From the NCBI GenBank assembly GCA_018060845.1, contig JAGOVG010000001.1, positions 15,222-79,221 on the forward strand: 64,000 nucleotides of DNA, given 5' to 3'. Below are positions 48,162 through 62,789 of the stretch, in pieces; within the stretch, counting starts at the first letter, position 1; every line of letters begins with the position of its first letter. Under the pieces are notes generated by a model. That model was given only the letters and a program-made list of their open reading frames with translations, was not told the origin of the DNA and made no database searches. The DNA is from Candidatus Woesebacteria bacterium. Lineage in GTDB: Bacteria > Patescibacteriota > Microgenomatia > UBA1400 > UBA12108. A program made the translations under genes and the position numbers.

Positions 48162-48170
48162 TGTTAGGCC

Positions 48171-48368: not shown

Positions 48369-48530
48369 AATAGCTCCTTATATTTGCCTTCTACCCACCA
48401 GAGAGAGCTTGCTAAAAATTTAATAGTGTAGAATACTAGTCTTGATGTAGAACTGAGAGGAGTGAGTAATTCATTCCTCTCTTTTCGTATTCTGTCGCCA
48501 ATTGTTTTTTGGCATGTTTAATCCTTTGGC

Positions 48531-48558
48531 TACAAAAACCTCCCTTAACCGGGAGGTT
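48531..48558 (-). terminator. Rho-independent terminator ending the hsdR-to-ORF150 operon
   Basis: On the minus strand: CCTCCC-ggttaa-GGGAGG followed by TTTTTGT, about 135 nt downstream of the ORF150 stop. Confidence 0.55.
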
Positions 48559-48692
48559 GCCTTGTTCCCGCTTAAGCGGTTGTGGTGATTAAGAATTACT
48601 TCGCGTCATCATAACTTGAAAACTATCCTAACGAATATTACACATACCATGCAACCACTAGATCTATATCAAAGTAGTGCAACTTAATTTCT

Positions 48693-49145: not shown

Positions 49146-49479
49146 ATTTTCTTAGAACATCTCTAGGTTTTACTCCCTCTGCCTTACTAACGACCCCTTC
49201 TTTTTCTAGTTTTTCCATAATCATTGCTGCTTTGTTGTATCCATGTGACATACGGCGTTGTAGGTATGACACACTGGCTTTGCCTGCGTCAGATATGACT
49301 CTCCATGCCTCGTTATATTCTTCATCAGCTATCGTAGTAAAGGGATTTGCGTAAGGAATATCAATTTCATCTTCATCTTCTCTTGGCTCGGTATAAAGTA
49401 AATAAGCCACCATCTTCTCGAGGATTAATACACGATTGGTTAATTCATCTACTTGCTTCATTAATTGATCATCGCTCAT
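49126..49479 (-). CDS. Standalone FtsK gamma-domain (winged-helix) protein
   Basis: C-terminal 58 aa EEYNEAWRVISDAGKASVSYLQRRMSHGYNKAAMIMEKLEKEGVVSKAEGVKPRDVL align almost residue-for-residue with the FtsK C-terminus at 345-2480 (ASTSFLQRKMSLGYNKAARIMDQLETAGVVGQQEGAKPRTIL). Confidence 0.75.
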   Translation of the reverse strand: MSDDQLMKQVDELTNRVLILEKMVAYLLYTEPREDEDEIDIPYANPFTTIADEEYNEAWRVISDAGKASVSYLQRRMSHGYNKAAMIMEKLEKEGVVSKAEGVKPRDVLRKYEEKED

Positions 49480-49487
49480 ACGCCTCC

Positions 49488-50163
49488 TTAGAATGGTAAA
49501 TCACTCTTAGTATTCCGATACCTTTCATTAACATGCCGATACTTACAAAACCGGCAATCCTCATTCTCATTGGGGATTGGGCCAGTGATGAGCGTATTGA
49601 TCTCATCCATAAATTTGGTGAAAGATGACTCGTCGATTGGGACTTCGAGCCACTTGGGTGGGAAAGTTAGAGTGGCAACTCCATTATCGAACTTTACCTG
49701 ATCGGGATACATGACAATAAGACCCATTTGGGTGATGCGAATTGGTTCGTCATGCCTGGGATGTTCCATGGCGAATTTGTAGGAATAGAGCTGGGTCTTA
49801 TATTTATCGATTTTGTCCACATGTGGCTGAGATAGCTTAAAGTCTACTAAAAGATATGTACCATCTCGACGTTTAACTAGTAGGTCATATTTGCCTTTGA
49901 GATACAGCTCTGTGCCGGGTATAACGATAGACTCCACAAATCCCCTCCTGCTTCTCAACGATTCCCTCTGGTAGACTTGGGGATAGGGCACGCAACTCTT
50001 TACCAACTAGCGTTCCTTGTAAGCGAGTATTGATAGCTGAGAAGATCCCTGGCATGGGCATTTGAGGCCTCATAACCTGATCGTGGACTTTCATCCAATA
50101 ACATCGTTTACACTCTTCATATAAATAGGCAAAATCTGATGGAGAGAGTTTGCATTGATGCAT
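49488..50163 (-). pseudogene. Cas4-like/RecB-family PD-(D/E)XK nuclease with Cys cluster, interrupted by a 1-nt frameshift
   Basis: N-terminal ORF has SPSDFAYLYEECKRCYW (Cas4 YCPRrfY-type). C-terminal ORF, in another frame, has GKYDLLVKRRDGTYLLVDFKLS (D...D/ExK), TQLYSYKF (QxxxY) and a C-terminal CRFC. The two frames would join by deleting one C in the CCCC tract at 49942-49945. Confidence 0.65.
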
Positions 50164-50165
50164 AG

Positions 50166-50759
50166 TTATGAGTTCTTCTCTCGTATCTCTTCCTCTAAGG
50201 ACTTCAATGTAGATTCAAATAGTGTCATAAATTCGTCAGTTTTCCCATTAGTTGCTCCGTACAATTCCATCCAAAGCCCTTCTGCATCTTTATTGCCGAT
50301 TCTATTAGTCGGATCGTCCCATTTAGATTCGTAAAAGATTTCAAAATCTATTGCATATCTTTTTATCAGGTCTAGGATTGATTGAATGTATTTAGTTTTA
50401 TCTTTTCCCCATAAGGCGTCGGCTCTGAGCTTTAATATTCTGAGATGACTATTAGTTTCTATTACGTCATTAAGTCTTGCTGCATGTTCACTGTAATGTG
50501 CATCACGTTGTTTTTCCACATCCTTCATAATATCTTGTTGATATCTATAAAATCTTCCTCTCGCATGTATGAGCTTTTCTTCTATCTCATACACACATTC
50601 CATAATTTCAAGTGATAATTTGTATTCATCTTGACCTTTTACTTGCTTCTTCCATGTTGACAACCCTTGATACGCTATCCATACTCCAAAACCTACTAGG
50701 AGAGAGTTAACTAATTCTAGATTTAACATGTTTAATAGACATGGTAGATTAATTAACAT
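50166..50759 (-). CDS. Hypothetical protein with N-terminal TM helix, directly downstream of hsdMS
   Basis: Lies 4 nt after the hsdMS stop. N-terminal hydrophobic helix (LVNSLLVGFGVWIAYQGL), then a charged helical domain with no recognised motif. Confidence 0.45.
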   Translation of the reverse strand: MLINLPCLLNMLNLELVNSLLVGFGVWIAYQGLSTWKKQVKGQDEYKLSLEIMECVYEIEEKLIHARGRFYRYQQDIMKDVEKQRDAHYSEHAARLNDVIETNSHLRILKLRADALWGKDKTKYIQSILDLIKRYAIDFEIFYESKWDDPTNRIGNKDAEGLWMELYGATNGKTDEFMTLFESTLKSLEEEIREKNS

Positions 50760-50763
50760 ATCA

Positions 50764-53163
50764 TCATTCTGACCATAAATTAGATAAAAGTAAATCTACT
50801 TTTTGCTCATATATTTCAACTAGTTGTCGCACGTTATCGACTAACATATATTCTGAATTAATATTTTTAATTATTTCGATTTGAGTTTCAGCCGAGGGAA
50901 AAGGTACTTCAATATCTTCTATTTGAGATTTACTTATTGAATCAAATACTGCACCTCCGTTTCCTACTATTTCCTTTTCAATCATTTTCAAATATGTAAA
51001 TAAAAACATCTGATTTATCTTTATTGGTTTTATTGCTGCCAGACCTCTCCCTATACAGATTTGTTCTGTAGTAATGTTTACGGGTCCAACAGGTGCTCGA
51101 ACTGACATCAGAATATCACCCTTATCTGCAACCTTAGATGTTTTTGTAGTCCACTTCGTAGGCTTCCGTAGATAGACATCTCCAAATTCTGTTTTGCCTT
51201 GATAAAATGCCATCCCTTGCTCAGAATCGTTATAATACTTTCCTTCTGGTGATTGGCCTGCAATAACATTAGCAACTTCGTGTAATTTGACTTTATTCCA
51301 AAGCTTATTAATTTCTATACTAGGTTTCCAATTATTTTTTATTAGCAGAGCCCCATTTATAATTTTCTGATAATTATCTATCTTTGCAACGATTTGATCC
51401 TGAATTTCAATTGATGGTAAGGGTATATTAAACTGTCCTAAATCACTAGTTTTCATTGTTACATTTGCTGCTCCACTCATCAATTTCGCCATTTCCTTCT
51501 TAACACTATTTAATACGTAATACAGGTATTTAGTATTCAATTGGCTCGCATCAATGGGCACTAGCAGAGCTAATAAATTAGCAAGAGCAAACTTTCCTGT
51601 TGTGTAATGTATCCTCTTTATATCGGCTTTCCCGTGTCCCGTTGCGGAAATTAGAGGAACAGCAACTCCTTCGCCCTCAAAATCAAAATGATCTGATGAT
51701 TTTATTATTTCTGCAGTTAAATATAATTTGTATGGACCATTTTCAGTTTTAGTGCTTGATGACTTTCCTTTTACTATTGTGCAAATTTCCGCTAAAGGTA
51801 CATACTTAATATCTGTACTTACAACATCTCTTTTTTTATATTTTAATAATGAAAGATTATAGTTATTATTTATTATTTCTTGTTTATTTATAATTGAAGA
51901 TAAGTGATTAGGTTTGATTTTCGTACTACTTTGGTAAGCTTTAATTATTTTGAGAGCAACTTCTAAATCGTTTTCTTTTATAATTTTTTGAGTTGCGCCT
52001 AGACTTACTCCAGTGCTATGGATATCTATAAATATAAGGTTGTCATTCAGATTATTAAGAGCCTTATCAAAAACTAATATAGAAGTTTTTACTCCTGAAT
52101 ATGGTTGAAATACTCCACTTGGAAGACTAATGACAGCATACAATCCATCATTAATAAGATTTTTACGTAACTCAGTATGGGATTTTCCAGTTTGGAAAAT
52201 AATACCTTCTGGAACAATAATTGCAGCTCTCCCGTTTGGCTTTAAATGATTCATTATGTAGTCAACAAACAATACCTCTGAACGACTAGATTGAATACTG
52301 AATTTGCTGTGTGGAGTAATTCCTCCTTTTGGAGACATGAAAGGAGGATTGGCTAAGATAACATCAAACTTATCATTCCAACGTTCATCTTGTGACAGTG
52401 AGTCGTACTGAAATATTTTTGGGTTCTTAAATTGATGAAGATACATATTTACCTGAGCTATACGGACCATCCCTGGATCAATATCATATCCTTCAAAGTT
52501 ACCCATCATTTTCCTGCGCTCGTCAGGTGTTAGCGCTTTTTCTTTCTTATCTGGATCATTTTTCCCATCATGCTTCTCAAGTATGTGAAGGAAGGATTTG
52601 ATTAAGAATCCTCCTGTCCCACAAGCTGGGTCTAGCACCTTATCATCCTTAGTTGGATTTACAACATCTACCATGAAATCAATAATGTGTCGTGGAGTTC
52701 TAAACTGTCCGGCGTCCCCTTGACTAGACATGATTGAAAGTAGATATTCGTAGGCATTGCCAAGCTCTTCTGGATGAGAGTAATCAAAGAATCCTATTTC
52801 TTTAAGAAATAGTCCTAGTGTTTCTGGTGAACGATATGGTAAAAATGCAGATTTGAATATGCCTCTAAATAACTCTGGGAGCTGTTTAGATTCGGAGAAC
52901 TTAACTAATGCCTCGGCATATAAATTCATTCTCTCCTGATTACCGAGCCGTGAGTCCATAATTCTAGTCCATGCGTATTTCTCTAGGTCACCGACAAAGA
53001 AGGCTGGCTCTCCACCTACTTTCACCGAAGCTTGATCTATATCGTCCATGAACTTGTAGATTAGAGCAGTAGTGATTTGATCAATCTGAGATGTCGGATT
53101 GGGAACCACCCCTACAAGCACTTGTCGTGCCGCGTCTATATGTCTTTTAGTGTCTGTATTCAT
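50764..53163 (-). CDS. hsdM: Type I R-M fused methyltransferase-specificity subunit (HsdM-HsdS fusion)
   Basis: HsdM_N helices, motif I DPACGTGGFL, motif IV ILANPPF. Two HsdS-type TRDs follow, each ending in a conserved spacer helix (LPLPSIEIQDQIVAKID; VPFPSAETQIEIIKNINSEY). Confidence 0.85.
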   Translation of the reverse strand: MNTDTKRHIDAARQVLVGVVPNPTSQIDQITTALIYKFMDDIDQASVKVGGEPAFFVGDLEKYAWTRIMDSRLGNQERMNLYAEALVKFSESKQLPELFRGIFKSAFLPYRSPETLGLFLKEIGFFDYSHPEELGNAYEYLLSIMSSQGDAGQFRTPRHIIDFMVDVVNPTKDDKVLDPACGTGGFLIKSFLHILEKHDGKNDPDKKEKALTPDERRKMMGNFEGYDIDPGMVRIAQVNMYLHQFKNPKIFQYDSLSQDERWNDKFDVILANPPFMSPKGGITPHSKFSIQSSRSEVLFVDYIMNHLKPNGRAAIIVPEGIIFQTGKSHTELRKNLINDGLYAVISLPSGVFQPYSGVKTSILVFDKALNNLNDNLIFIDIHSTGVSLGATQKIIKENDLEVALKIIKAYQSSTKIKPNHLSSIINKQEIINNNYNLSLLKYKKRDVVSTDIKYVPLAEICTIVKGKSSSTKTENGPYKLYLTAEIIKSSDHFDFEGEGVAVPLISATGHGKADIKRIHYTTGKFALANLLALLVPIDASQLNTKYLYYVLNSVKKEMAKLMSGAANVTMKTSDLGQFNIPLPSIEIQDQIVAKIDNYQKIINGALLIKNNWKPSIEINKLWNKVKLHEVANVIAGQSPEGKYYNDSEQGMAFYQGKTEFGDVYLRKPTKWTTKTSKVADKGDILMSVRAPVGPVNITTEQICIGRGLAAIKPIKINQMFLFTYLKMIEKEIVGNGGAVFDSISKSQIEDIEVPFPSAETQIEIIKNINSEYMLVDNVRQLVEIYEQKVDLLLSNLWSE

Positions 53164-53165
53164 AT

Positions 53166-55742
53166 TTATAGATTAGTTAAGTTGTACGCGTAATCGTGAA
53201 TGTATTGTGGTACAACAGTTGAGTATCCATTTAACCTCTGGTACTCATCAAAAGTAAAGCTCGATTCGGTGTTAAATCGCCCAACTTGGCGACTTGCGAC
53301 GATTTCTCTCACCTTTTCATCAGATGCATAGGCTTTGAAGTACATTTTTACGGCGTCGTAGTGTTCTTGGTCAACTGGGTTAACCTCCATAAACTTGCCC
53401 CATTCAGACTCTAATAGGTCATCTTTCATCTCAAAAGCATCTTTGTCTCCAAATGCTACCTGAAGGAATTCTTTGACAGTAATGCGTCTATCGACACTAA
53501 ATATCTTTCTTATTTTGTCTAGGTTGAGGAAATGTTTTGGCTTATCAAAGATATTCTTCTTAGCAAAATCTTCTGCTGCCTCAATGTCACCATTCTCCCA
53601 CATATTTTTGAGAGTTTTGTTTCCAAGCACATCTTCGTCAATCGCACGCTTGAATCCTTCTCTATCAATCTTCATTCCCTCCACCCCGATTGCAGTCTCA
53701 GCGACTGAGACAACTTCATCTCTAGTAGCAAGATCGATGGGACCGTTAAATACTTTGTGACCATTTTCATCTACATAGTCGCTACTAGATGATACTTCAA
53801 CACCAATCTCAGTGACGGGAACTTTTTTGATGTTTGGTAATTTTATCTTTTCGTCATACTCAAATTCTTTTTCAAAATATTCACAAGTAGCGAAGAAATC
53901 AAAGAACTTAAATTGTTTTTTGGGGATCGAGATTGTTTCGTTATTGGTGTAGTCGTGATAGTCGAAGGAGTATTTCCTAGTTCCACGCCCCTTAATCTGT
54001 ACAAAATCGGCAGGACTAAAGACTGGGCGCATCAGAGCAATGTTAAGCAGATCCTGACAATCGTAGCCAGTCGTCATCATTCCGACTGTTACGGCTACGC
54101 GAGTTTTACTTGTATCGTATCCTTCTGGACTTTTAATCTGTCCACCAAGCTTATTATTTGCAAAGTTGATTGTCATTTGTTGTGCACTTTGAACTTGAGA
54201 AGTAACTTGTACTGCAAAGTCTGACTCACTATAAAGCTTTGGCCATTTTTCCATTGCTAGTTTATTGAGAATATTTGTGACGTGAGCCGCATGGCGCTGC
54301 GATACGCAGAATACGATAGATTTACCAAATAGCTGAATGTCGAACTTACTAGCAATAGGATCGAAGAACCCGTTATCAAGAAATGCTTTGGACATGGCAA
54401 TATTTGTTTCTTCATTAAAGAACTTACGCTCGTAGTGACGCTCATTAAAGACCTCGTCAATACTTTCGCCGTCTTCTCCGGTTGTGTGGACTGAATACCC
54501 TTCACCAGATAAAAGTTGAGTTGTGATCTCGGTGCGAGCATCAACTACCGTAGGTTGGATTAAATAGTCTTCTTTCGAACCCTGAACGAGATCATATGAG
54601 AAGGTTGGGTTGCCAGACTCACAGCCGAAGGTTTTATATGTATCCAGAAGAAGTCTTCGTTCGTATTCTCTTTGACTATCGTTGCTTTCACCGCTATCCA
54701 GCCCTTTTAGATAATTCTTGGGTGTAGCAGTAAGTCCAAGCTTATATCCGACAAAATATTCAAATACAGCCCGACTATTTCCTCCGATTGAGCGGTGAGC
54801 TTCGTCAGATATCACAAGTTCAAAGTCGGTAGGAGAGAAATCCTTTCGATACCTATTGCCAGAAAGAAAAGTTTGAATTGTTGAAACAACGACACTTGCA
54901 TTTTGCCAGCTATCTTTTGTATTTTTGTATATTGCACAAGTAAAATCTTTGCCTAAATACTGGATAAAGGCTTTGTTTGCTTGGTCTTCAAGTTCTAGGC
55001 GATCTACTAGGAATAGTACTCTCCTTGCATTCCCAGATTTGAGGAAGAGCTTAATAACTGCGGCAGAAATTAGGGTTTTTCCTGTTCCTGTTGCCATCTC
55101 GAAAAGAAATCTTTGATTACCTTCTAAAGCAGATTGTTGAAGTGCCTTTAGAGCTTGAACTTGATATGGACGAAGTTGTTTAAGATTGTGTTTCTTGAGA
55201 TATGACGAACGAGTATTCTCATCTATAAATTCAGGAACTCTCGAATAATCTGGCATTTGAGTTGAGATAACATAGTTCGCATCAACGCTAGTGTTAGCTA
55301 GCTCTTCTGGGTCTGGAGTGTATTTCTGGTACTGACTGATTGAATCTTGAGTTGGGAATCGAGAGATTGTATCGGGGTTTCCATGTTTCGTATCCCAAAA
55401 ATAGTGAATATTCCCATTTGAGAGAATAATAAATCGAGCTCCGCAATTACGTGCGTAGTTACGAGCTTGCTCTTTGGCAGATAATGGGTCGACTGACTCT
55501 TTCTTTGCCTCTACTACGAGAAGTGGTCGTCCATCCTTATCTAACAAAAGGAAATCAATAAAACCATGCACTTCATGTTCAAAGTCATCTCCTAGCTCGG
55601 AGTACTTAATTCCTGGTTCGAGCTGAATGTTAGCTTTTCCGAGACTATTATCTACAAATCTCCAACCTGATTCCTCGAGAAGTTTATTTATTTTTATCCG
55701 AGCTTGAGCCTCTTTTTGCACCATGAGAGTATTGTACCCCAT
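53166..55742 (-). CDS. hsdR: Type I restriction endonuclease R subunit
   Basis: N-terminal PD-(D/E)XK (GFIDFLLLDKDGRPLLVVEAKKE), SF2 motor motifs (EMATGTGKT; VISDEAHRS), C-terminal helical domain. Starts 3 nt upstream of the hsdMS start. Confidence 0.9.
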   Translation of the reverse strand: MGYNTLMVQKEAQARIKINKLLEESGWRFVDNSLGKANIQLEPGIKYSELGDDFEHEVHGFIDFLLLDKDGRPLLVVEAKKESVDPLSAKEQARNYARNCGARFIILSNGNIHYFWDTKHGNPDTISRFPTQDSISQYQKYTPDPEELANTSVDANYVISTQMPDYSRVPEFIDENTRSSYLKKHNLKQLRPYQVQALKALQQSALEGNQRFLFEMATGTGKTLISAAVIKLFLKSGNARRVLFLVDRLELEDQANKAFIQYLGKDFTCAIYKNTKDSWQNASVVVSTIQTFLSGNRYRKDFSPTDFELVISDEAHRSIGGNSRAVFEYFVGYKLGLTATPKNYLKGLDSGESNDSQREYERRLLLDTYKTFGCESGNPTFSYDLVQGSKEDYLIQPTVVDARTEITTQLLSGEGYSVHTTGEDGESIDEVFNERHYERKFFNEETNIAMSKAFLDNGFFDPIASKFDIQLFGKSIVFCVSQRHAAHVTNILNKLAMEKWPKLYSESDFAVQVTSQVQSAQQMTINFANNKLGGQIKSPEGYDTSKTRVAVTVGMMTTGYDCQDLLNIALMRPVFSPADFVQIKGRGTRKYSFDYHDYTNNETISIPKKQFKFFDFFATCEYFEKEFEYDEKIKLPNIKKVPVTEIGVEVSSSSDYVDENGHKVFNGPIDLATRDEVVSVAETAIGVEGMKIDREGFKRAIDEDVLGNKTLKNMWENGDIEAAEDFAKKNIFDKPKHFLNLDKIRKIFSVDRRITVKEFLQVAFGDKDAFEMKDDLLESEWGKFMEVNPVDQEHYDAVKMYFKAYASDEKVREIVASRQVGRFNTESSFTFDEYQRLNGYSTVVPQYIHDYAYNLTNL

Positions 55743-55898
55743 AGCGGCAACATCTCAGATTGCTCGGGCAACTTTGAAGATGACAATCGCCAACTTACTG
55801 TGAAGGATGTTGTTTCTAAAGATGAGGTTGGCCTAGCCTGCCACAAATGATTTAGGAGATCAGTGGCAAATGCTTCAGTACTAACAGCCACAGCTGAC

Positions 55899-55922
55899 CA
55901 TTTTGTCGGCGTCGACAAAATG
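55899..55922. promoter_or_regulatory. Palindromic operator-like site 1 upstream of hsdR (CATTTTGTCGGCGTCGACAAAATG)
   Basis: 24-bp inverted repeat with one mismatch. It sits inside a roughly 50-nt unit (TGACCATTTTGTCGGCGTCGACAAAATGATATTTGAC) that is repeated 90 nt downstream. Confidence 0.6.
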
Positions 55923-55988
55923 ATATTTGACGGGTTGATCGCTCCTTTTAAAGGATTCTTATGCACACAATATAGAGGATTGACCAAC

Positions 55989-56012
55989 CATTTTACCGGC
56001 GCCGGTAAAATG
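55989..56012. promoter_or_regulatory. Palindromic operator-like site 2 (CATTTTACCGGCGCCGGTAAAATG), a perfect 24-bp palindrome
   Basis: Second copy of the unit (TGACCAACCATTTTACCGGCGCCGGTAAAATGGTTTTTGAC). Half-site CATTTT(A/G)(C/T)CGGCG. Confidence 0.6.
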
Positions 56013-56031
56013 GTTTTTGACTGATTATCTG

Positions 56032-56286
56032 CTATTTTCTTGGATTTAGTATTAAGAACTCTAGAGCTCTCCACAGAGTACCAATAAAGCCGCTGTCTGT
56101 ACATTTTGCGGCACGCATTAGAGACTCGACGGCATCGTGTTGTGGAGGGAGACTAACCCCAGGTTCTGAGGGTACGCGAGTCTTTAACTCGTGCTCTAGG
56201 AGCTGTCTCGCAAAACAAAAACCTAACCAGGTACAGGTATCTGGATTTGGACATGTTGGTGAAATCTTAAATTCTGATTTGGTCAT
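56032..56286 (-). CDS. Hypothetical small Cys-containing protein
   Basis: ORF only; it lies downstream of the 285-aa ORF and immediately before (higher coordinates) the palindromic sites, which sit between it and hsdR. Confidence 0.3.
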   Translation of the reverse strand: MTKSEFKISPTCPNPDTCTWLGFCFARQLLEHELKTRVPSEPGVSLPPQHDAVESLMRAAKCTDSGFIGTLWRALEFLILNPRK

Positions 56287-56301
56287 CTATGTTGCTTGAT
56301 G

Positions 56302-57159
56302 TTATTGGGGTACGCACTCATAGAGATCTTGACACATTGTTAGTAATGCGTGTGCGTTTGCAGCTACTGGGTTATTTGATGCTTTCATTTCGTATTTCAA
56401 AGAATTTGCTACCATTTGATCATAAGAAGCAAATTGATAATCTTTAAGTGGAGTGGGATCAAATATTCCATCTTCCCTGAAAGTAGCTGCTCGATACAGT
56501 TGTCTTACTTGCCATAATATTGCGGCTTGTCGCATACCAAGTATTGCAGTGTGAGCAACAGATGGTTCAAGTTGGACATCTCTACACCCCTTACTCTGCA
56601 TTACTGTATATGATCGCTCTAGTGCACGAAAAAGCGAGTCTCTATATTCAGTAGCATTTTTATCACTAATCTTTCTGTGAGTTGCTTCTTTTAGTGTTTG
56701 GATTGTTGGTGTCACTCGTACAGCGTTAGGGTCTATTCTAAATAATTCGGTTTCTAATACTGACAGTGGGGTGTTTACAATTGCCTGAGATGGCCCACCT
56801 GAAGAGCAGATATTTGTTGAACCAACTAGGTGAAGTAAACGTATTTTCGATAGTTCGCCTGGAGTTCTTTTAATTGTATTCTTTAGAATAGTATTCAGGT
56901 GCGCATCGTTTAGTGCATCTTTAAAATTACCACCTTTGCCATAAAATTGATAAACTCTACTCGAGAAAGTATTTACAGTTTCTGCAAGAGCTAAAGTGAG
57001 TTTCTCGCTTAATTCAGGTCTATTTATCGCTGCTGCTGCTTGTTCAGCTGCTATCACTAACATGGATGAAGTTACTCGATACATGAAGTGTTTCACTGTT
57101 TCAAAAGACTCAGGGCCAAGTCTAATGTTGCTGTATACCGCTTCGTGATCTATAGACAT
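56302..57159 (-). CDS. Hypothetical 285-aa protein between the RecD-like helicase and the R-M locus
   Basis: ORF with no recognised motif. Looks AT-richer than the helicase genes. Confidence 0.45.
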   Translation of the reverse strand: MSIDHEAVYSNIRLGPESFETVKHFMYRVTSSMLVIAAEQAAAAINRPELSEKLTLALAETVNTFSSRVYQFYGKGGNFKDALNDAHLNTILKNTIKRTPGELSKIRLLHLVGSTNICSSGGPSQAIVNTPLSVLETELFRIDPNAVRVTPTIQTLKEATHRKISDKNATEYRDSLFRALERSYTVMQSKGCRDVQLEPSVAHTAILGMRQAAILWQVRQLYRAATFREDGIFDPTPLKDYQFASYDQMVANSLKYEMKASNNPVAANAHALLTMCQDLYECVPQ

Positions 57160-57195
57160 TCTTGGTATTATAGGATAAATGGCTGAAATTTCAAG

Positions 57196-58503
57196 CTAGA
57201 GGATGGTACTGGTTTCGCGCATTAAAGTGAGCCAAGAGGTCACGGTCGGATCCATGATGACGTGGCGGTGGGTGAGCTCGCGGCGGAGATAGACGCCAGC
57301 GAGACTGGTTGCGCGTGATAGTGCGACATAAGTCTGGCCATGGGCAAAGGACTGAGGTAGGTCGATGATGACTCGGTCAAAAGTCTTCCCCTGTGCTTTG
57401 TGGATGGTAACTGCCCAAGCGAGCATAAGCGGGAGCTGGGTGTAGGTGCCGACCACGTCGCTACTGATCCGACGTGATTTTTCGTTGTAGTCAAAACTAA
57501 ACATCTCCCAGGTAGTTGGGGCGACGTCAACGAGCTTTTTGTTTTTGAGCCTGACTGAGACTATAGGCAGGCTATTCTCCCAGTCGATTTCCTCGACCCT
57601 GCCAACTGTCCCATTAACATACCTCTTCTCCCTATCGTTTGCCGTCAGCATAACCTGTGCCCCGATCTTGAGGGTTAACTCGCGAGGAGCTGGTTCGGTA
57701 CGATTATCAAACTTCCCGGTTGCGATCGCAAAAAAATCGTGGCTCTTGCCACTTAGGCTATTTAGCTGATAGTCGTTGTAGTCACCGGCGGTTTTGTTGG
57801 TACCGGTTAGGTTGATCACATACTCCTCGGGAGGTGGCGCATAGTCGGGAGAGACGCGGGTATTTAGAAGATCTAGGTGGGAGCTATTAAGTTTCCCCTC
57901 GCGTAGCGCATTTAGGACCTCGATAAACTCGGCATCACTCTGTCTATAGATATGGTCGAGTTCGATAAAGGTAAGTGCTAGGCGAGACATCACGTCGGCA
58001 CTAAAGAAAAAAGGTGAAGAGTAGCGAGCACGAAAAACCTCTGCCTCCATATATGGTACGACGGGTGGGAGCTGATAGAGGTCGCCAAAGAAAATCATCC
58101 GCTTGCCACCGAACGGGCGAGAGCTCATGCAGACCCTACGCAAGAAAGCATCGATACAGTCTAGGAGATCGGCTCGGACCATACTGATCTCGTCGATGAT
58201 GACTAGATTTAGGTTTTTATAGAGTTCGGATTTTTTGGTTTTGCCACCTAAGCTCCAAGCTTTGTCGATTGTGATGTTGGGTTTAAAACCAAAGAAGCTA
58301 TGAATGGTGGCACCACCCACATTGACTGCCGCCACTCCGGTGGGAGCCAAGACTACATGGGACTGCTCGGTGCTCTTGTGAAAGTAAGTAAGGAGCGTGG
58401 ACTTGCCTGTCCCTGCCCGACCAGTGATAAAGAGGTGGTCGCTACCGTGCTCTAAGAGCTCTAGGGTTTGTTTAAATATTGGAGAGAGCTCAATGTTAGA
58501 CAT
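57196..58503 (-). CDS. RecD/PIF1-like SF1B DNA helicase (short form)
   Basis: Motif I FITGRAGTGKST, Ia VLAPTGVAA, II VIIDEISMV, and a C-terminal SH3-like/2B region (AVTIHKAQGKTFDRVII). Confidence 0.8.
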   Translation of the reverse strand: MSNIELSPIFKQTLELLEHGSDHLFITGRAGTGKSTLLTYFHKSTEQSHVVLAPTGVAAVNVGGATIHSFFGFKPNITIDKAWSLGGKTKKSELYKNLNLVIIDEISMVRADLLDCIDAFLRRVCMSSRPFGGKRMIFFGDLYQLPPVVPYMEAEVFRARYSSPFFFSADVMSRLALTFIELDHIYRQSDAEFIEVLNALREGKLNSSHLDLLNTRVSPDYAPPPEEYVINLTGTNKTAGDYNDYQLNSLSGKSHDFFAIATGKFDNRTEPAPRELTLKIGAQVMLTANDREKRYVNGTVGRVEEIDWENSLPIVSVRLKNKKLVDVAPTTWEMFSFDYNEKSRRISSDVVGTYTQLPLMLAWAVTIHKAQGKTFDRVIIDLPQSFAHGQTYVALSRATSLAGVYLRRELTHRHVIMDPTVTSWLTLMRETSTIL

Positions 58504-58524
58504 ACCTCATGTTACACCACGATT

Positions 58525-61500
58525 TTAAGCGAGCAAGTCAATTTCGAATGATTTGGTGCCCTGGAGGTTCTTGCTATATTTGTCGGTTATTGGGAGGTCT
58601 AAGGCCTGGATCTTGCCCCAAACTACCCCTATCAGTTTTTTGATCTCTTGCTCTTCTGCCTCATTAAACTGAATACTGAGCGGTGCAATGATATCACCGC
58701 TCCTTAGATCTGTGGGCTCGACAAACTCTAGCCGAGCCTCAGTTACTTTGTAGCTCCTCCAAGTGTAACTACCCTCTATAAGGAATTTGTAGAAATATAA
58801 TTGATGCTTGTATTTGTAGGCTTTCATTGAGGATTCCCATTTGGGGAGAGGCTGACCAGTTTTGAAGTCTACAATACGCAGAGTTTTGTTAACTTGATCA
58901 ATCTCTAGTCTATCGATCTTGCCGGTCAATCTAGCATCACCAATACAGACTCCCTCACTATAAAAGTTTACCTCTGTCTGAGCACTCTGGCTAAACATAT
59001 CTCCACGGCTAGTTAGATACTTTTGAAGTACTACACTACCCCGACTAAGTAAGTGATCCTTATCATGCTCGCTTAAGAAGCGATGATTTAGCTCTACACT
59101 ATAGTGAGTCAGTACCTCGGCCATCTCTGGTTTTTTACTGCTTAAAATCTGTTGCTGATACCACTCTAAGGTATTGTGGATCGCTAAGCCATATTCACTA
59201 TCCGGAGTTGGGGCGCTCGGGAAGCGTAGCAGTGTCCGCATCAAAAACTCTTCGGGACCGCTGTGCTCTAGATCCATAAAGGTATTGAGGTGGGTGGGAC
59301 TCATGACGTAGCTGTCCAGGTGCTCACTCAGGAGGTCACGAAAATCGACCGGGAGCGTAACTCGGCCGGCGCTCCAGAGAGTGGCTACATCACGAGCTAA
59401 GTCATCTGAGCTATGCTCTGTAGTCACAATATTCTGTGAAGATAACGGTAAGTGTGGTGAGACACCGTCAACCTCACCCAAGTATTTGAGAGGAGTGGTT
59501 GGTTTGCCGTTATCGTGACTCGAATGTGAGGAAATATAGAGGCCGTAGCGGGAGCGGGTGATGGCAACAAAGAAGAGTCGCAGCCGCTCGTCATCACCAC
59601 TATGGGTATAGCGGATATGGCTCAGATTGGGTGGGAGGGAGAGCTTGGACCCGCCGCCGCGACTGGCACTACCCCAGACATCGTCGTGCGCCTGCAAAAT
59701 AAAGACGTGATCAAACTCGAGCCCCTTGGCTTTGTAGGCTGTCATGAGCTGGACACTACTTAACCCCTGTGCGACAGGATGTGAGTTAATCAGTCCCTCG
59801 CCAGCCGATTCGTACATCGCAAAAAAGTCGAGAAAGTCGGTGAGCGTCAAGCTATGGTCACTACTATTTTGATATTCCCTCAGGTGTGAGCGAATAATAC
59901 TTAGATGTGTGATCGCTTCGTAGTATTTGACTGCATCAACCGAGCGCATTTCTATGGCAAAGTAGTGAGACTTAAGAGGAGTCTCGGTAATTAGCTGGTC
60001 AAGGATAGATTCGAGCGGTGTAGTTGCTACTGCACCACTGAGAGTGAGATAAAAATTAACTGCCTCTGATAATGCATTATTCTCGAGCGCGATCTCGGCC
60101 CAGGCTCTCTTTTCTTCTTTTTTGGCAAACTGCCAGTTGGTACGCCATACCTCGACCACCGGGATACCCCAGTATGGTTGAGACAAAACCTGAGGAAAGT
60201 ATTCGTTTATCTTTGAGCGATTATTAGTCCAAAGCGCGTCGAGTAGTAGTGCTGATTGGTGAAGGATTTTGACTATTTCGGTATCCAGGATGTTCTCACG
60301 CTTTTCGTAGGTTAAGGGGACTCCCAGTTGCTTGAGGAACGGCACCATATTCTCTAGTAGTTTGTGTTTGGGAGCAATGACTGCAACCTCGCTGGGTTTG
60401 GTGCCACGCTTAATTAACTCGTCGATCTGACGAGCGACCCATGAATACTCTGCTGCCTCGGATACAAAATCATTGCGCATAATATTGGAGCTGGGAGGGA
60501 GTGCGTCGCTACTCTCAACTAGTAATTTGTCGATACCCTCTAGCTTGGTATGCAATCGACCACTAATCTGACTGGCGATGTTCTGGGCAACGTGTAGTAC
60601 GTCGCGGTGTGAGCGATAGTTGTTGACTAGGTTGATAACCTGCACTTCACGAAATGATTCTAGAAAATCTTGGATGTTGCCGATGTTCGCACCCTGAAAA
60701 GCAAAAATGGCCTGGTCATCATCTCCTACTGCCATCACGTTGGGTCGACCCTCGTGGACAGGGTGGTCTGCTATCCGCTTGACCAGCTCGAACTGTGCGG
60801 GGTTGGTATCCTGGAACTCGTCGAGGAGGATATATTGATAGCGTTCCTGCAGGTTAAACCTTAGTTCGTCATTATTTTTAAGACCCTCGATTGCGCGGAT
60901 GATCATGTCATTAAAATCGTAAGATGCCTCTACTCTGAGAGCTTGCTCATACGACTCGTAGATGCTTGAGAGATCGACCATTTTTTCGCTGGTCGCGCGC
61001 TTGGTTAATGTAAATTTATCTTTATCATCTTTGTGTAACCAAGCGTTCTTCCATTTGGTTAGGGGAGTGGAAGTGCTACTCTCCTCATATTCATCAAATG
61101 CAAGTTTTAACCCACCTGCTGCTTGCTCGACCAAACTACCACTAAGAGCGGACAAGCGCTCGAGCAATGTCGCATACTGGCTTGGCCACTGATCTTTTTT
61201 GCGCGAGATACCACCCACCTGGTTAATCACCTCATCGATGACTATCTGAGCGGAGTCGATCTGATGGAGGTTGTTAATACCTAGTTCATAGAGTGCTTGT
61301 GGAGTTATTAAGTTTTTTTTGAGATCGCTAATAGTACTCACCACATCTTTGACAAAGTAGCGGGCAGAGAGGAGTGAGCTATCAAATGGTAGCTTACCGA
61401 GGATCGCTTCGACTATCCGGATTTGAGATAACTCATCGATCGCTCGCTCGAGCCTAACATCATCCGTTCGATCTAGCCCTATCTGCTGAAAGTATTCACT

Positions 61501-61818
61501 GTGGCTCTTTATGATGTCGCTACCAAAACTGTGGTAGGTACTAATAGTCACCTCGTAGGCGGCCTCACCAATAAACTCCCTGAGGCGACGACGCATATTG
61601 GCGGCACCGGACTCGGTAAAAGTGAGACAGAGGATGTTGCTGGGTGCAATATCCGTTAGCTTTAGAATATTGGCGACACGAGCGGAGAGGAGCTGGGTCT
61701 TGCCAGTACCAGGACCAGCAAGTACGAGGAGCGGGCCATCGATCGTATCGACTGCCAGTTTTTGCTCTTTGTTTAGATTGTTGTAGGCGGTCGCAAAGGA
61801 TGATTTGTAGTCTGTCAT
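58525..61818 (-). CDS. RecB/AddA-like UvrD-family helicase fused to a C-terminal PD-(D/E)XK nuclease
   Basis: Helicase motifs VLAGPGTGKTQLL, LLDEFQDTNP, YKAKGLEFDHVFIL, VAITRSR. C-terminal nuclease GKIDRLEID...LRIVDFKTGQ plus QLYFYKF. Confidence 0.85.
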   Translation of the reverse strand: MTDYKSSFATAYNNLNKEQKLAVDTIDGPLLVLAGPGTGKTQLLSARVANILKLTDIAPSNILCLTFTESGAANMRRRLREFIGEAAYEVTISTYHSFGSDIIKSHSEYFQQIGLDRTDDVRLERAIDELSQIRIVEAILGKLPFDSSLLSARYFVKDVVSTISDLKKNLITPQALYELGINNLHQIDSAQIVIDEVINQVGGISRKKDQWPSQYATLLERLSALSGSLVEQAAGGLKLAFDEYEESSTSTPLTKWKNAWLHKDDKDKFTLTKRATSEKMVDLSSIYESYEQALRVEASYDFNDMIIRAIEGLKNNDELRFNLQERYQYILLDEFQDTNPAQFELVKRIADHPVHEGRPNVMAVGDDDQAIFAFQGANIGNIQDFLESFREVQVINLVNNYRSHRDVLHVAQNIASQISGRLHTKLEGIDKLLVESSDALPPSSNIMRNDFVSEAAEYSWVARQIDELIKRGTKPSEVAVIAPKHKLLENMVPFLKQLGVPLTYEKRENILDTEIVKILHQSALLLDALWTNNRSKINEYFPQVLSQPYWGIPVVEVWRTNWQFAKKEEKRAWAEIALENNALSEAVNFYLTLSGAVATTPLESILDQLITETPLKSHYFAIEMRSVDAVKYYEAITHLSIIRSHLREYQNSSDHSLTLTDFLDFFAMYESAGEGLINSHPVAQGLSSVQLMTAYKAKGLEFDHVFILQAHDDVWGSASRGGGSKLSLPPNLSHIRYTHSGDDERLRLFFVAITRSRYGLYISSHSSHDNGKPTTPLKYLGEVDGVSPHLPLSSQNIVTTEHSSDDLARDVATLWSAGRVTLPVDFRDLLSEHLDSYVMSPTHLNTFMDLEHSGPEEFLMRTLLRFPSAPTPDSEYGLAIHNTLEWYQQQILSSKKPEMAEVLTHYSVELNHRFLSEHDKDHLLSRGSVVLQKYLTSRGDMFSQSAQTEVNFYSEGVCIGDARLTGKIDRLEIDQVNKTLRIVDFKTGQPLPKWESSMKAYKYKHQLYFYKFLIEGSYTWRSYKVTEARLEFVEPTDLRSGDIIAPLSIQFNEAEEQEIKKLIGVVWGKIQALDLPITDKYSKNLQGTKSFEIDLLA

Positions 61819-62789
61819 GAGATCCTCGGCTGCTCATCGGCATCTGATTTTGTTAAAGCTTTGGTGCCCTCTAGTTTTTGACCCAGCTGGGTGATGCCGC
61901 TACTTACTTCACTATATTTGTTGTAGGCATTGGTTAGATGAGTGCCGAGCGTACCGTATGATTCGCTAACTTTTGTGTAGTCTTTTTGGATACTACGAAG
62001 GAGAGTAAAGACTTCTTTGGCCCGTGACTCGATGCGGCGACCCTCGAAAGATAGGAGGATAGTCTGCAGTGCGGCATAAAGGGTGCTCGGGGAGACGGGG
62101 TAGACCCGGAGCCCTCGCGCATAGTCCATGACACCGTCAGCCTGGACGATCTCGTAATATACGCTCTCTGAGGGGATATACATAAGCGCAAAGTCCAGTG
62201 TCCCCTCGCTGGGATTAATGTATTTGGTGCTAATGGCCTTAACGTGGAGTCGAACATCCCGGACAAAGGAGCGCCTATGCGCAATGACCAAATCTGGGTT
62301 TTGTTCTGAGTAGATTTTTTGAAAATTCTCGAGAGGGAACTTACTATCGATCGGGAGGATGCCAGCATCGGTCTTTACTATCGCGTCGACTTTTTCCCCT
62401 GATTTAAACGCATATTGGAGCACGTAACTACTCTTAGGGAAAATCTGACCTATTAGGTCGGCGAGGACCGCCTCACCAATATTGCCGCGTAGCTTAGGAG
62501 AGCGCAGATAATCCTGGAGATCCTTCATGGAGCGGCCGATCTCGCTAAAGGCCCCTGTCTCTTTTTTTAGTTCACCAATCACATAACTCGCTCGCTCTAG
62601 ACGCGAGCTGATATCACGCGTCGTATCAAGGAGAGAACTGGCCACGCTAGATTTTGTTGAGTCAACGCTAGTTCTTATAGTATCGAGCTCCCGTCTAAGG
62701 GAGCTGATAAAGAGATAGCCTGCGATAAAGATCACAACGGTTATGGCGATTAAGAACAGTTCGAGAGACATAGATTTATTGTATACCAA
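61815..62789 (-). CDS. rmuC: DNA recombination protein RmuC
   Basis: N-terminal TM, coiled-coil, conserved RmuC C-terminal nuclease-like domain (LPIDSKFPLE...DFALMYIPSESVYYE). 4-nt overlap with the downstream recB-like gene. Confidence 0.82.
   Translation of the reverse strand: MVYNKSMSLELFLIAITVVIFIAGYLFISSLRRELDTIRTSVDSTKSSVASSLLDTTRDISSRLERASYVIGELKKETGAFSEIGRSMKDLQDYLRSPKLRGNIGEAVLADLIGQIFPKSSYVLQYAFKSGEKVDAIVKTDAGILPIDSKFPLENFQKIYSEQNPDLVIAHRRSFVRDVRLHVKAISTKYINPSEGTLDFALMYIPSESVYYEIVQADGVMDYARGLRVYPVSPSTLYAALQTILLSFEGRRIESRAKEVFTLLRSIQKDYTKVSESYGTLGTHLTNAYNKYSEVSSGITQLGQKLEGTKALTKSDADEQPRIS

What the first reader, a model, noticed from the sequence alone, without database searches (positions are those of the whole stretch)
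57196..62789. rmuC, recB-like helicase-nuclease and recD/PIF1-like helicase in one operon with no RecC/AddB partner in sight
A 1097-aa UvrD-family helicase with a C-terminal RecB-type nuclease is followed immediately by a 435-aa SF1B RecD/PIF1-like helicase. RmuC overlaps the first gene by 4 nt. RecBCD and AddAB normally need RecC or AddB. A minimal two-motor RecB-RecD pair coupled to RmuC would be an unusual end-processing machine. Because it directly abuts the R-M island it could also serve a defensive role.
Basis: partly seen in the sequence, partly recalled or inferred. Interest (0 to 1): 0.55.

Follow-up and report, generated by a model that had tools for sequence, protein, structure and literature searches.

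The report
RmuC, AddA-like helicase-nuclease, Pif1 operon
Three DNA-repair genes (RmuC, a partner-less AddA/RecB-like helicase-nuclease, and a true Pif1 helicase) sit in a tight operon in one small group of ultra-small (CPR) bacteria. Comparison with about 70 related genomes shows the grouping is a local gene-order quirk, not a conserved two-motor machine or a defence system.

Summary
On the minus strand lie rmuC (62771..61815), a 1097-aa UvrD/PcrA-like helicase fused to an intact RecB-type nuclease ("HelNuc", 61818..58525, 4-nt ATGA overlap with rmuC) and a 435-aa helicase (58503..57196). The 435-aa protein is a genuine bacterial Pif1, not RecD and not a relaxase fragment. HelNuc has the AddA/RecB/AdnB architecture but falls below every NCBIfam equivalog cut-off.

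HelNuc orthologues are solitary in about 63 other Saccharibacteria-type loci. In the complete Southlakia epibionticum genome the orthologue is the only PDDEXK_1 protein. That genome has no annotated AddB, RecC or RecD, and its Tn-seq decline resembles recA, recF and recR. HelNuc is therefore most likely a partner-less end-resection enzyme.

The rmuC-HelNuc-pif1 triad occurs only in one narrow Microgenomates-group clade (4 genomes). A sister genome keeps rmuC-HelNuc but has an ExoIII-like gene in place of pif1. Pif1 and RmuC are unlinked and dispensable in S. epibionticum.

The type I R-M genes belong to a low-GC island of about 10 kb that starts exactly after the pif1 stop codon, at a variable hotspot. 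The adjacency is incidental. This MAG's whole genome could not be searched for addB or recC.

The parts
61815..62771 (-). rmuC: RmuC-family protein with an N-terminal membrane helix and a predicted PD-(D/E)XK-type nuclease. First gene of the operon. The start is probably the ATG at 62771 (318 aa); the mechanical ORF starts at the TTG at 62789.
   Evidence: Pfam RmuC 3.6e-51, residues 35-316. The gene call is 318 aa in the source contig and in relatives. Sequence shown.
58525..61818 (-). HelNuc: 1097-aa SF1A UvrD/PcrA-like helicase fused to a C-terminal RecB-family PD-(D/E)XK nuclease. It has the AddA/RecB/AdnB architecture. Its start overlaps the rmuC stop by 4 nt (ATGA).
   Evidence: Pfam domains. 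All NCBIfam equivalogs are below cut-off, with PcrA the best at 266 bits. Motifs are intact and there are only 2 Cys. AF2 model pLDDT 85.9. Best full-length Foldseek match is AddA 4cej_A, E = 4.4e-32. Overlap shown.
57196..58503 (-). pif1: 435-aa SF1B Pif1-family helicase (5'-3' polarity inferred from the family). It has its own GAGG ribosome-binding site 21 nt after the HelNuc stop.
   Evidence: Pfam PIF1 4.7e-31. PDB 8bns 2e-119; Bacteroides Pif1 5fhd 2.7e-80 over residues 7-417. recD and RecD2 models are below cut-off. Junction sequence.
57167..57194 (-). Boundary marker, not part of the operon: a near-consensus sigma-70-like promoter (TTGAAA-16-TATAAT, 11/12) between the pif1 stop and ORF285. 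It is the first feature of the foreign island.
   Evidence: sequence. Similarity between the triad loci ends at the pif1 stop.
46761..57159 (.). Flanking low-GC variable island, not part of the operon. It holds ORF285, ORF84, type I hsdR (53166-55742), an hsdM-hsdS fusion (50764-53163), ORF197, a split Cas4-like ORF and an FtsK-gamma-like ORF. It is inserted between pif1 and the backbone DNA-alkylation-repair gene (45993-46760).
   Evidence: Pfam hits. GC 0.34-0.43 against 0.47-0.51 for the triad. Backbone order taken from L093. Cargo differs in L083, L084 and L092.

Best explanation
This is a lineage-specific DNA-repair operon in a Microgenomates-group CPR bacterium. It is not a RecBCD-like holoenzyme and not a defence module.

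HelNuc, the central gene, belongs to a widespread family of partner-less AddA-like motor-nucleases. These pair a 3'-5' UvrD/PcrA-type motor with an active RecB-type nuclease that has no Fe-S cluster. The most likely mechanism is inferred, not shown. HelNuc loads on a broken or blunt DNA end, unwinds it with its SF1A motor and cuts the displaced strand(s) with its C-terminal nuclease. RecA is then loaded by RecFOR, because no AddB/RecC-type Chi-reading subunit exists.

RmuC (a membrane-anchored PD-(D/E)XK protein) and Pif1 (a 5'-3' SF1B helicase that clears flaps, G4 DNA and R-loops in characterised members) are independent repair factors. In this one clade they have come to be co-transcribed with HelNuc. 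Co-expression is likely; an obligate physical complex is not.

The type I R-M genes belong to a foreign island that landed in a variable hotspot just downstream of pif1.
For: Shown:
- Domain identities, intact motifs, the ATGA overlap and the separate RBS.
- AddA-like overall fold: AF2 pLDDT 85.9; Foldseek 4cej_A E = 4.4e-32, followed by UvrD/PcrA, AdnB, AddB and RecB.
- HelNuc orthologues (28-73% identity, full length, 1070-1170 aa) are solitary next to housekeeping genes such as ATP synthase, Dus and a P-type ATPase. This holds in L002, L085-L089 and L003-L059. No recurrent AddB-like neighbour was found.
- The same solitary architecture occurs in Collinsella and Saprospirales.
- In the complete S. 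epibionticum genome (PMC10633639 Tables S1/S2), SEML1_0364 shares its synteny with L012 and is a 'core family' gene. It is the only PF12705 protein and the only AddAB-type ECOD hit.
- That genome has no AddA/AddB/RecB names, no K16898/K16899/K03581/K03582/K03583 and no PF04257/PF21445.
- Its Tn-seq calls are NE/NE/GD, with normalised reads falling 8081 -> 1516 -> 361. This parallels RecA (790 -> 264 -> 43), RecF and RecR. The Pif1-like gene (SEML1_0264) and RmuC (SEML1_0575) are NE and unlinked.
- The triad is found only in the window, L083, L084 and L092. L093 has rmuC-HelNuc followed by Exo_endo_phos and DNA_alkylation genes.
- A 70%-identical Pif1 lies in an unrelated context.
- The island boundary falls at the pif1 stop codon, with a GC drop.

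Inferred: the resection mechanism, and RecFOR-dependent RecA loading.
Against: - The rest of this MAG (GCA_020049755.1) could not be searched, so an unlinked addB or recC is not excluded for this organism.
- The complete-genome evidence comes from a Saccharibacteria orthologue that is only about 36% identical.
- A slow Tn-seq decline is not specific to recombination.
- In B. subtilis AddAB the AddA subunit depends on AddB (my own knowledge). Stand-alone activity would therefore need properties that have not been demonstrated here.
- Tight coupling (ATGA overlaps, 3-26 nt gaps) is kept in 4-5 genomes. The complementary polarity of an SF1A and an SF1B motor is exactly the RecBCD logic. Real cooperation within this clade remains possible.
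Confidence: 0.6

Rival explanations
1. One reading: a minimal bipolar two-motor machine. In this clade HelNuc (3'-5') and Pif1 (5'-3') would bind each other and travel on opposite strands of one DNA end, as RecB and RecD do, without a RecC scaffold. RmuC would act as an accessory nuclease.
For: - Complementary motor classes.
- Tight co-directional arrangement kept in four genomes, with a 4-nt overlap or gaps of 3-26 nt.
- Within the clade Pif1 is more conserved (85-89%) than HelNuc (66-70%).
- No RecC or AddB in the window.
Against: - Adjacency is limited to one narrow clade (LepA 84-94% identical).
- Sister genome L093 replaces pif1 with an ExoIII-like gene.
- About 63 other HelNuc loci lack pif1.
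- A 70%-identical Pif1 lives elsewhere without HelNuc.
- Neither protein gains a domain or changes length compared with solitary relatives.
- In S. epibionticum the two genes lie 100 kb apart, and the Pif1-like gene shows no fitness effect while the HelNuc orthologue does.
Confidence: 0.12
2. Ordinary AddAB, RecBCD or AdnAB, with the partner subunit encoded elsewhere in this genome.
For: - Only 64 kb of the window plus 10-kb flanks were visible, out of a MAG with many contigs.
- The fold is AddA-like.
- There is a faint ADDB_N hit.
Against: - AddA/AddB, AdnA/AdnB and RecB/RecC genes normally co-occur and are usually adjacent (PMC1193525).
- No partner lies beside any of about 70 orthologues.
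- There is no AddB, RecC or RecD by name, KO, Pfam or ECOD in a complete genome with the orthologue.
- HelNuc is far below the addA and recB equivalog cut-offs: 92-162 bits against 708-861, and 118 against 696.
Confidence: 0.1
3. HelNuc, alone or with RmuC, mainly degrades DNA for another purpose. Candidates are processing or scavenging of imported DNA in a nucleotide-auxotrophic, naturally competent CPR cell, or PcrA-like anti-recombinase or replication-restart work. On this reading it is not a double-strand-break resection enzyme.
For: - The helicase core is closest to PcrA/UvrD (PcrA model 266 bits; PDB 1pjr 1.8e-49).
- CPR bacteria depend on DNA uptake and cannot synthesise nucleotides (PMC10633639 main text).
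- The Tn-seq phenotype is unspecific.
Against: - A canonical 668-aa PcrA/UvrD is already encoded at 40562-42568.
- The Tn-seq trajectory parallels recA, recF and recR.
- The full AddA-like architecture is present with an intact nuclease.
Confidence: 0.13
4. An anti-phage defence module, Gabija-, Nhi- or DRT-associated-like, functionally linked to the adjacent type I R-M island.
For: - PADLOC gives generic hits: GajB 1.4e-80, RTasHel 4.3e-70, RTasRmuC 1.8e-8 and PDC-S68 for Pif1.
- The locus abuts an R-M island and a variable hotspot that carries R-M, RadC, DUF3800 and Schlafen-like helicase genes in relatives.
Against: - The PADLOC hits are family-level UvrD, RmuC and SF1B similarity. No GajA, RT or other system partner is present.
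- HelNuc is a core, single-copy gene beside housekeeping genes in most genomes.
- The triad has native GC, and the island starts only after pif1.
- L083 has no R-M genes downstream.
Confidence: 0.05

Closest known systems
AddA subunit of AddAB (Bacillus subtilis; PDB 4cej/3u44)
   Same: One polypeptide with an N-terminal active SF1A UvrD-like motor and a C-terminal RecB-family nuclease with no Fe-S cluster. AddA is the best full-length structural match (E = 4.4e-32).
   Different: - No AddB partner lies beside any orthologue, and none exists in a complete genome with the orthologue.
- Sequence scores are far below the addA equivalog cut-offs.
- The helicase core is closer to PcrA/UvrD.
- Chi recognition, which resides in AddB, has no counterpart here.
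RecB and RecD of RecBCD (E. coli)
   Same: SF1A motor plus PD-(D/E)XK nuclease in HelNuc. An SF1B helicase is encoded immediately downstream, mimicking the recB-recD gene order and the bipolar-motor logic.
   Different: - There is no RecC.
- The recB model scores 118 bits against a cut-off of 696.
- The downstream helicase is Pif1, not RecD (recD 56.8 against 310).
- The adjacency is confined to one small clade.
AdnAB (Mycobacterium; PDB 6ppr/6ppu)
   Same: AdnB is a UvrD-like motor plus RecB-like nuclease of almost the same size (1095 aa). It matches by PDB phmmer at 1e-21 and by Foldseek.
   Different: - AdnAB is a heterodimer of two paralogous motor-nucleases encoded side by side. Here there is a single gene with no paralogue nearby.
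- HelNuc has only two Cys residues, so it cannot carry the nuclease-domain Fe-S clusters that I recall for AdnAB (the AdnAB feature is from memory).
PcrA/UvrD/Rep helicases
   Same: These give the closest sequence similarity for the motor: PcrA model 266 bits, PDB 1pjr 1.8e-49, with all SF1A motifs present.
   Different: - HelNuc carries an extra ~300-residue C-terminal region with the nuclease domain (Pfam hit 839-1035), and an insertion of about 100 aa in the N-terminal domain.
- It is below the equivalog cut-offs.
- A canonical PcrA/UvrD is encoded separately at 40562-42568.
Bacterial Pif1 helicases (Bacteroides Pif1 5fhd; Thermus oshimai Pif1 6s3e; 8bns)
   Same: The 435-aa protein aligns end to end with these structures (E = 2e-119 to 1e-68). 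It has the Pif1 motifs and the 2B/SH3 domain.
   Different: - It lacks the C-terminal WYL domain of the ~515-aa relatives (PF13280 in P0206 and P0209).
- Its placement directly after a helicase-nuclease is peculiar to this clade.
E. coli RmuC (YigN)
   Same: RmuC Pfam domain well above cut-off (174 bits against 26).
   Different: - It is much shorter (318 aa against 475 aa).
- It is far below the E. coli equivalog cut-off (22 against 810).
- The function of RmuC is poorly defined even in E. coli (my own knowledge).

Membership tests
AddAB | AddA-type subunit: active SF1A motor plus C-terminal RecB-family nuclease in one chain | tested here: met
   Pfam domains, intact motifs, and a full-length Foldseek match to AddA 4cej_A at E = 4.4e-32.
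AddAB | Sequence membership: NCBIfam addA equivalog cut-offs | tested here: not met
   TIGR02784 scores 162.4 against 860.75. TIGR02785 scores 92 against 707.65. PRK13909 variants score 36-105 against 650-1109.
AddAB | AddB partner (inactive helicase plus nuclease) encoded adjacent or elsewhere in the genome | tested here: not met
   None was found in the 64-kb window or beside about 70 orthologues. The complete S. epibionticum genome has none by name, KO, Pfam or ECOD. The rest of this particular MAG was not searchable.
RecBCD | RecB equivalog score | tested here: not met
   TIGR00609 scores 117.9 against 696. PRK10876 scores 52.5 against 1697.
RecBCD | RecC subunit present | tested here: not met
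   No candidate exists in the window or beside the orthologues. K03583 and PF04257 are absent from the S. epibionticum tables. The whole genome of this MAG is not testable with these tools.
RecBCD | RecD subunit (SF1B, recD equivalog) | tested here: not met
   The 435-aa protein scores 56.8 against 310 for TIGR01447 and 15.3 against 671 for PRK10875. It is Pif1.
AdnAB | Two paralogous motor-nuclease subunits encoded together | tested here: not met
   tblastn with HelNuc finds only one copy per locus in 90 loci. The only second hit is the canonical PcrA.
AdnAB / AddB / Cas4-type nucleases | Four-cysteine Fe-S cluster in the nuclease domain | tested here: not met
   HelNuc has only two Cys, at positions 64 and 958. 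That this feature defines those families is my own knowledge.
PcrA/UvrD/Rep | Equivalog-level similarity and helicase-only architecture | tested here: not met
   PcrA scores 265.6 against 911. UvrD scores 219-224 against 965-1144. Rep scores 160-210 against 951-1168. HelNuc carries an additional nuclease domain.
Pif1 family (SF1B) | PIF1 Pfam domain above the gathering score, full-length alignment to solved Pif1 structures, and helicase motifs | tested here: met
   PF05970 scores 108.5 against 25.9. PDB 8bns at 2e-119, 5fhd at 2.7e-80 and 6s3e at 1.1e-68, each covering nearly the whole protein. Motifs.
Pif1 family (SF1B) | 5'-3' unwinding activity | not testable with these tools
   Inferred from family membership only.
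Conjugative relaxase (TraA/TrwC) helicase fragment | Relaxase domain or relaxase-type helicase score | tested here: not met
   TraA models score 24-48 bits against cut-offs of 590-1317, and only over the C-terminal helicase motifs. The protein is a complete Pif1.
RmuC family | RmuC Pfam domain above the gathering score | tested here: met
   PF02646 scores 174.4 against 26, covering 3-288 of 291 model positions. The E. coli equivalog NF007686 is not met (22.2 against 810).
Gabija (GajAB) defence | GajB-type UvrD helicase together with a GajA OLD/TOPRIM nuclease | tested here: not met
   Only generic GajB-model hits to the UvrD core were found. No GajA hit appeared among the six PADLOC-scanned ORFs (RmuC, HelNuc, Pif1, ORF285, ORF197 and the Cas4-like ORF).

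The most novel reading that the evidence does not exclude
Patescibacteria (Saccharibacteria and some Microgenomates) resect DNA ends with a single-gene AddA-like motor-nuclease that needs no AddB, RecC or AdnA partner. It might act as a homodimer, which would be an ancestral-looking form of AdnAB. In the window's clade this enzyme would have recruited Pif1 as a second motor of opposite polarity. That would independently re-create the RecB-RecD bipolar design without a scaffold subunit.
Probability: 0.12. Interest if true: 0.65.

Novelty: new variant of a known kind. Interest (0 to 1): 0.36.

Why it matters
All three well-studied bacterial end-resection machines (RecBCD, AddAB, AdnAB) are multi-subunit. 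A partner-less AddA-like enzyme would define a minimal resection machine. The evidence for one is that it is core to Saccharibacteria, is the only such nuclease in a complete genome, and shows a recA-like fitness profile. It would also help explain how ultra-reduced CPR genomes keep homologous recombination, which is now exploited for their genetics.

The specific rmuC-HelNuc-pif1 operon matters less. It is a recent, clade-restricted arrangement beside an insertion hotspot. Its value is mainly as a natural experiment for asking whether Pif1 can assist an SF1A motor-nuclease.

Tried and rejected
1. Whole-genome search for recC or addB in this MAG. This was not possible. Only the window and 10-kb flanks of contig JAHZTO010000034.1 are reachable. 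I substituted the fully annotated S. epibionticum genome from PMC10633639.
2. PDB sequence search with the nuclease domain alone (residues 807-1097): no hit even at E <= 10. The fold search was needed instead.
3. Literature searches for Saccharibacteria/Patescibacteria combined with RecBCD, AddAB or RecFOR, and for stand-alone UvrD-like helicase-nucleases. These returned only general RecBCD, AddAB and AdnAB papers. One search failed on syntax.
4. Clustering of all ORFs within 6 kb of HelNuc in 63 loci, to find a hidden conserved partner. The best family occurs in only 16 of 63 loci. The top families are tRNA methyltransferase, Dus, P-type ATPase, aquaporin, GpsA and a pyridine-nucleotide oxidoreductase.
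5. Large ORFs next to distant homologues (L053, L060, L061, L063) were checked as AddB candidates. They are unrelated proteins: TPR/SPOR, tRNA synthetase, fn3 and asparagine synthase.
7. I first assumed the organism was a Saccharibacterium, based on the names of HelNuc hits. I rejected this after LepA and Pif1 both pointed to the Microgenomates group.
8. ORF285, ORF84 and ORF197 have no hits in Pfam or PHROGs. ORF285 and ORF197 also have none in NCBIfam or PADLOC.

Full report
**1. What is in the sequence**

The three ORFs lie on the minus strand exactly where the finding places them.

- **rmuC.** The mechanical ORF is 61815..62789 (324 aa from a TTG). Gene calls on the source contig and in relatives start at the ATG at 62771, giving 318 aa. 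It matches Pfam RmuC over nearly the whole model (E = 3.6e-51).
- **HelNuc.** The 1097-aa ORF (58525..61818) carries UvrD-helicase, UvrD_C and a C-terminal PDDEXK_1 domain. Every catalytic motif is present: Walker A GPGTGKT, DEFQD and GDDDQAI in the motor, and GKIDR, VDFKT and QLYFY in the nuclease. It has only two cysteines, so it cannot hold an Fe-S cluster.
- **Junctions.** The rmuC stop and the HelNuc start overlap as ATGA. The 435-aa ORF (57196..58503) follows 21 nt later behind a GAGG ribosome-binding site.
- **No partner in the window.** Besides HelNuc, the only ORFs of 700 aa or more are FtsK, PNPase, a PMT glycosyltransferase, HsdR and an HsdM-S fusion. No RecC- or AddB-sized candidate exists in the 64 kb.

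**2. Identity of the parts**

The 435-aa protein is a bona fide bacterial Pif1.

- It aligns end to end with solved Pif1 structures: 8bns at 2e-119, Bacteroides Pif1 5fhd at 2.7e-80 and Thermus Pif1 6s3e at 1e-68.
- It passes the Pfam PIF1 threshold.
- It fails the recD, RecD2 and TraA-relaxase models by wide margins.

HelNuc's motor is closest in sequence to PcrA/UvrD: the PcrA model scores 266 bits and PDB 1pjr gives 1.8e-49. AdnB (1e-21), AddA (8.5e-12) and RecB (4.5e-10) are more distant. It is below every NCBIfam equivalog cut-off.

An AlphaFold2 model built on 53 homologues has pLDDT 85.9 and pTM 0.75. Its best full-length structural match is AddA of B. subtilis AddAB (4cej_A, E = 4.4e-32). 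UvrD/PcrA come next, matching the motor only, followed by AdnB, AddB and RecB.

So HelNuc has the AddA/RecB/AdnB architecture but is not a sequence-level member of those families. A canonical 668-aa PcrA/UvrD is encoded separately at 40562-42568.

**3. Which organism**

The exact protein comes from MAG GCA_020049755.1, contig JAHZTO010000034.1, labelled Woesebacteria.

- LepA from the window is 84-94% identical in a small clade. It is about 73% identical to Microgenomates-group genomes, including GW2011_GWA2_46_7. No Saccharibacteria name appears among the best 120 hits.
- Pif1 behaves the same way: 74-90% in the clade, and about 70% in the same Microgenomates genomes.
- HelNuc's nearest relatives outside the clade are labelled Saccharibacteria (60-64%).
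- In a neighbour-joining tree the window clade nests inside the Saccharibacteria radiation. HelNuc is 61% identical to L085 but only 36-44% identical to other Saccharibacteria.

This suggests HelNuc was transferred from Saccharibacteria into this Microgenomates lineage. The tree has no support values, so I treat this as tentative.

**4. Is the gene cluster conserved?**

The rmuC-HelNuc-pif1 triad, with the same upstream flank (TatD, a class I tRNA synthetase, a Trp-repressor-like gene), is found in four genomes:

| Locus | HelNuc identity to window |
|---|---|
| Window / L001 | 100% |
| L084 | 70% |
| L083 | 66% |
| L092 | 63% |

- **Sister genome.** L093 (HelNuc 65%, LepA 73%) keeps the flank and rmuC-HelNuc. 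It has an Exo_endo_phos (ExoIII-like) gene and a DNA-alkylation-repair gene where pif1 would be.
- **Solitary HelNuc, close relatives.** At 49-64% identity (L088, L089, L085, L086, L087, L002) HelNuc stands alone, usually convergent with the ATP-synthase operon.
- **Solitary HelNuc, distant relatives.** Among 57 further loci (L003-L059), none has pif1 next to HelNuc. L033 has a different, 579-aa Pif1-family gene 2 kb away on the opposite strand. L059 has rmuC 0.8 kb upstream. Three related loci have rmuC 7 kb away.
- **No hidden partner.** Clustering all neighbouring ORFs found no recurrent partner. The commonest neighbours are Dus, a P-type ATPase, a tRNA methyltransferase, an aquaporin and GpsA.
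- **Pif1 elsewhere.** A 70%-identical Pif1 in a 965-kb Microgenomates contig sits among glycosyltransferase genes, next to TfoX and DUF2130 genes, with no HelNuc.
- **No sign of adaptation.** Neither HelNuc (1096-1124 aa throughout) nor Pif1 (434-438 aa) differs in size or domain content between triad and solitary forms.

The pairing with Pif1 is therefore recent and clade-restricted. The rmuC-HelNuc pairing runs somewhat deeper in this lineage, but it is not general.

**5. Is there a RecC/AddB partner?**

The rest of this MAG could not be searched. The best available substitute is the complete, fully annotated genome of the Saccharibacterium Southlakia epibionticum ML1 (PMC10633639, Tables S1 and S2, stored uncut).

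- SEML1_0364 (3282 bp; PF00580 + PF13361 + PF12705; 'core family' = 1) lies between a Dus gene and a P-type ATPase gene. This is the same context as the HelNuc orthologue of Nanosynbacter in L012.
- It is the only PF12705 protein and the only protein assigned AddAB-type ECOD domains.
- The tables contain no AddA, AddB or RecB names, no K16898, K16899, K03581, K03582 or K03583, and no PF04257 or PF21445.
- RecA, RecF, RecR and RecJ are present.
- In Tn-seq, SEML1_0364 is called NE/NE/GD, with normalised reads falling 8081 -> 1516 -> 361.
- That trajectory resembles RecA (790 -> 264 -> 43), RecF (1618 -> 574 -> 206) and RecR (GD throughout).
- The Pif1-like gene SEML1_0264 and RmuC SEML1_0575 are non-essential, flat, and located 100-200 kb away.

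Solitary proteins with the same architecture also occur in Collinsella and Saprospirales, beside unrelated genes.

**6. The R-M neighbourhood**

- Translated similarity between the triad genomes stops exactly at the pif1 stop codon.
- Beyond it, GC drops from 0.475-0.51 (the triad) to 0.39 (ORF285), 0.40 (hsdR) and 0.35 (hsdM-S).
- A near-consensus promoter sits between pif1 and ORF285.
- Comparison with L093 shows the backbone resumes at the DNA-alkylation-repair gene (45993-46760), followed by FemAB, PcrA, TIM and LytR. The island therefore spans about 46.8-57.16 kb.
- Relatives carry different cargo at the same spot:
  - L083: MazG and sigma-factor genes.
  - L084: RadC, HsdM and DUF3800 genes.
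  - L092: MazG-like, Schlafen-type helicase and RadC genes.

The adjacency to R-M genes is incidental. PADLOC hits (GajB, RTasHel, RTasRmuC) reflect generic family similarity, and no system partners are present.

**7. Interpretation**

- **Shown:** gene identities, the operon structure, the restricted distribution of the triad, the island boundary, and the absence of AddB/RecC beside orthologues and in one complete genome.
- **Inferred:** HelNuc is a partner-less AddA-like end-resection enzyme that feeds RecFOR/RecA. RmuC and Pif1 are co-expressed repair factors rather than subunits.
- **Still possible for this clade (about 0.12):** a physically coupled HelNuc-Pif1 bipolar motor.
- **Still possible for this MAG (about 0.1):** an unlinked AddB or RecC.

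**8. Verdict**

The partner-less AddA-like family is a modestly novel variant of a known kind and deserves biochemical study. The specific three-gene operon and its supposed link to defence are ordinary. Interest: 0.36.

Noticed in passing
window 46761-57159: A low-GC island of about 10 kb (0.34-0.43) inserted between pif1 and the backbone DNA-alkylation-repair gene. It carries type I hsdR (858 aa), an hsdM-hsdS fusion in one 799-aa ORF (N6_Mtase plus two Methylase_S stretches), and several ORFs with no family hits. The same site holds different cargo in L083, L084 and L092, so it is an insertion hotspot.
   Followed up: partly
window 57140-57196 (minus strand) and ORF285 56302-57159: A TTGAAA-16-TATAAT promoter-like site (11/12) ends only about 7 nt before the ATG of ORF285. 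This implies a leaderless or nearly leaderless transcript. ORF285 (285 aa) has no hit in Pfam, NCBIfam, PADLOC or PHROGs and is absent from the related loci.
   Followed up: partly
window 49488-50163 (minus strand): A Cas4-like PD-(D/E)XK nuclease (Pfam PDDEXK_1 4e-9; cas4 model 4e-9, below cut-off) appears split over two overlapping ORFs (49885-50163 and 49488-50006), possibly by a frameshift. It lies next to a small FtsK-gamma-like protein (49126-49479). These look like remnants of a mobile element at the far end of the island. No CRISPR array was looked for.
   Followed up: no
window 58525-61818 versus 27059-29023 (LepA) and 57196-58503 (Pif1): Phylogenetic discordance. LepA and Pif1 place the organism in the Microgenomates group (about 70-73% to GW2011_GWA2_46_7). 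HelNuc nests inside the Saccharibacteria radiation in an NJ tree. This suggests inter-class transfer of the helicase-nuclease into the site downstream of rmuC.
   Followed up: partly
L093 11431-13265: In the sister genome, HelNuc is followed by an Exo_endo_phos (ExoIII/AP-endonuclease-like) gene and a DNA-alkylation-repair gene instead of pif1. The position downstream of HelNuc seems to collect DNA-repair genes of varying identity.
   Followed up: no
L090 8001-11218 / L091 1645-4862: In another Microgenomates genome the 70%-identical Pif1 is followed, on the same strand, by a TfoX_N-domain gene, a PF1765-like gene and a DUF2130 gene. This may be a competence- or recombination-related cluster.
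   Followed up: no
window 40562-42568 (+): A canonical 668-aa PcrA/UvrD helicase without a nuclease domain is encoded 16 kb from HelNuc. The genome therefore keeps both a plain UvrD-type helicase and the nuclease-fused paralogue. The same PcrA-FemAB-TIM-LytR block is seen in L093.
   Followed up: partly
window 12233-13660 (minus strand): Translation initiation factor IF-2 is only 475 aa, lacking the long N-terminal region of typical bacterial IF-2. This fits a reduced CPR genome.
   Followed up: no
L033 5231-6970 (minus strand): A Paceibacterota-labelled genome has a different, 579-aa Pif1-family helicase with a C-terminal HTH_40 domain, 2 kb downstream of its HelNuc on the opposite strand. 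Among the 57 distant loci from the genome scan (L003-L059), this is the only other case of a Pif1-family gene near HelNuc.
   Followed up: no
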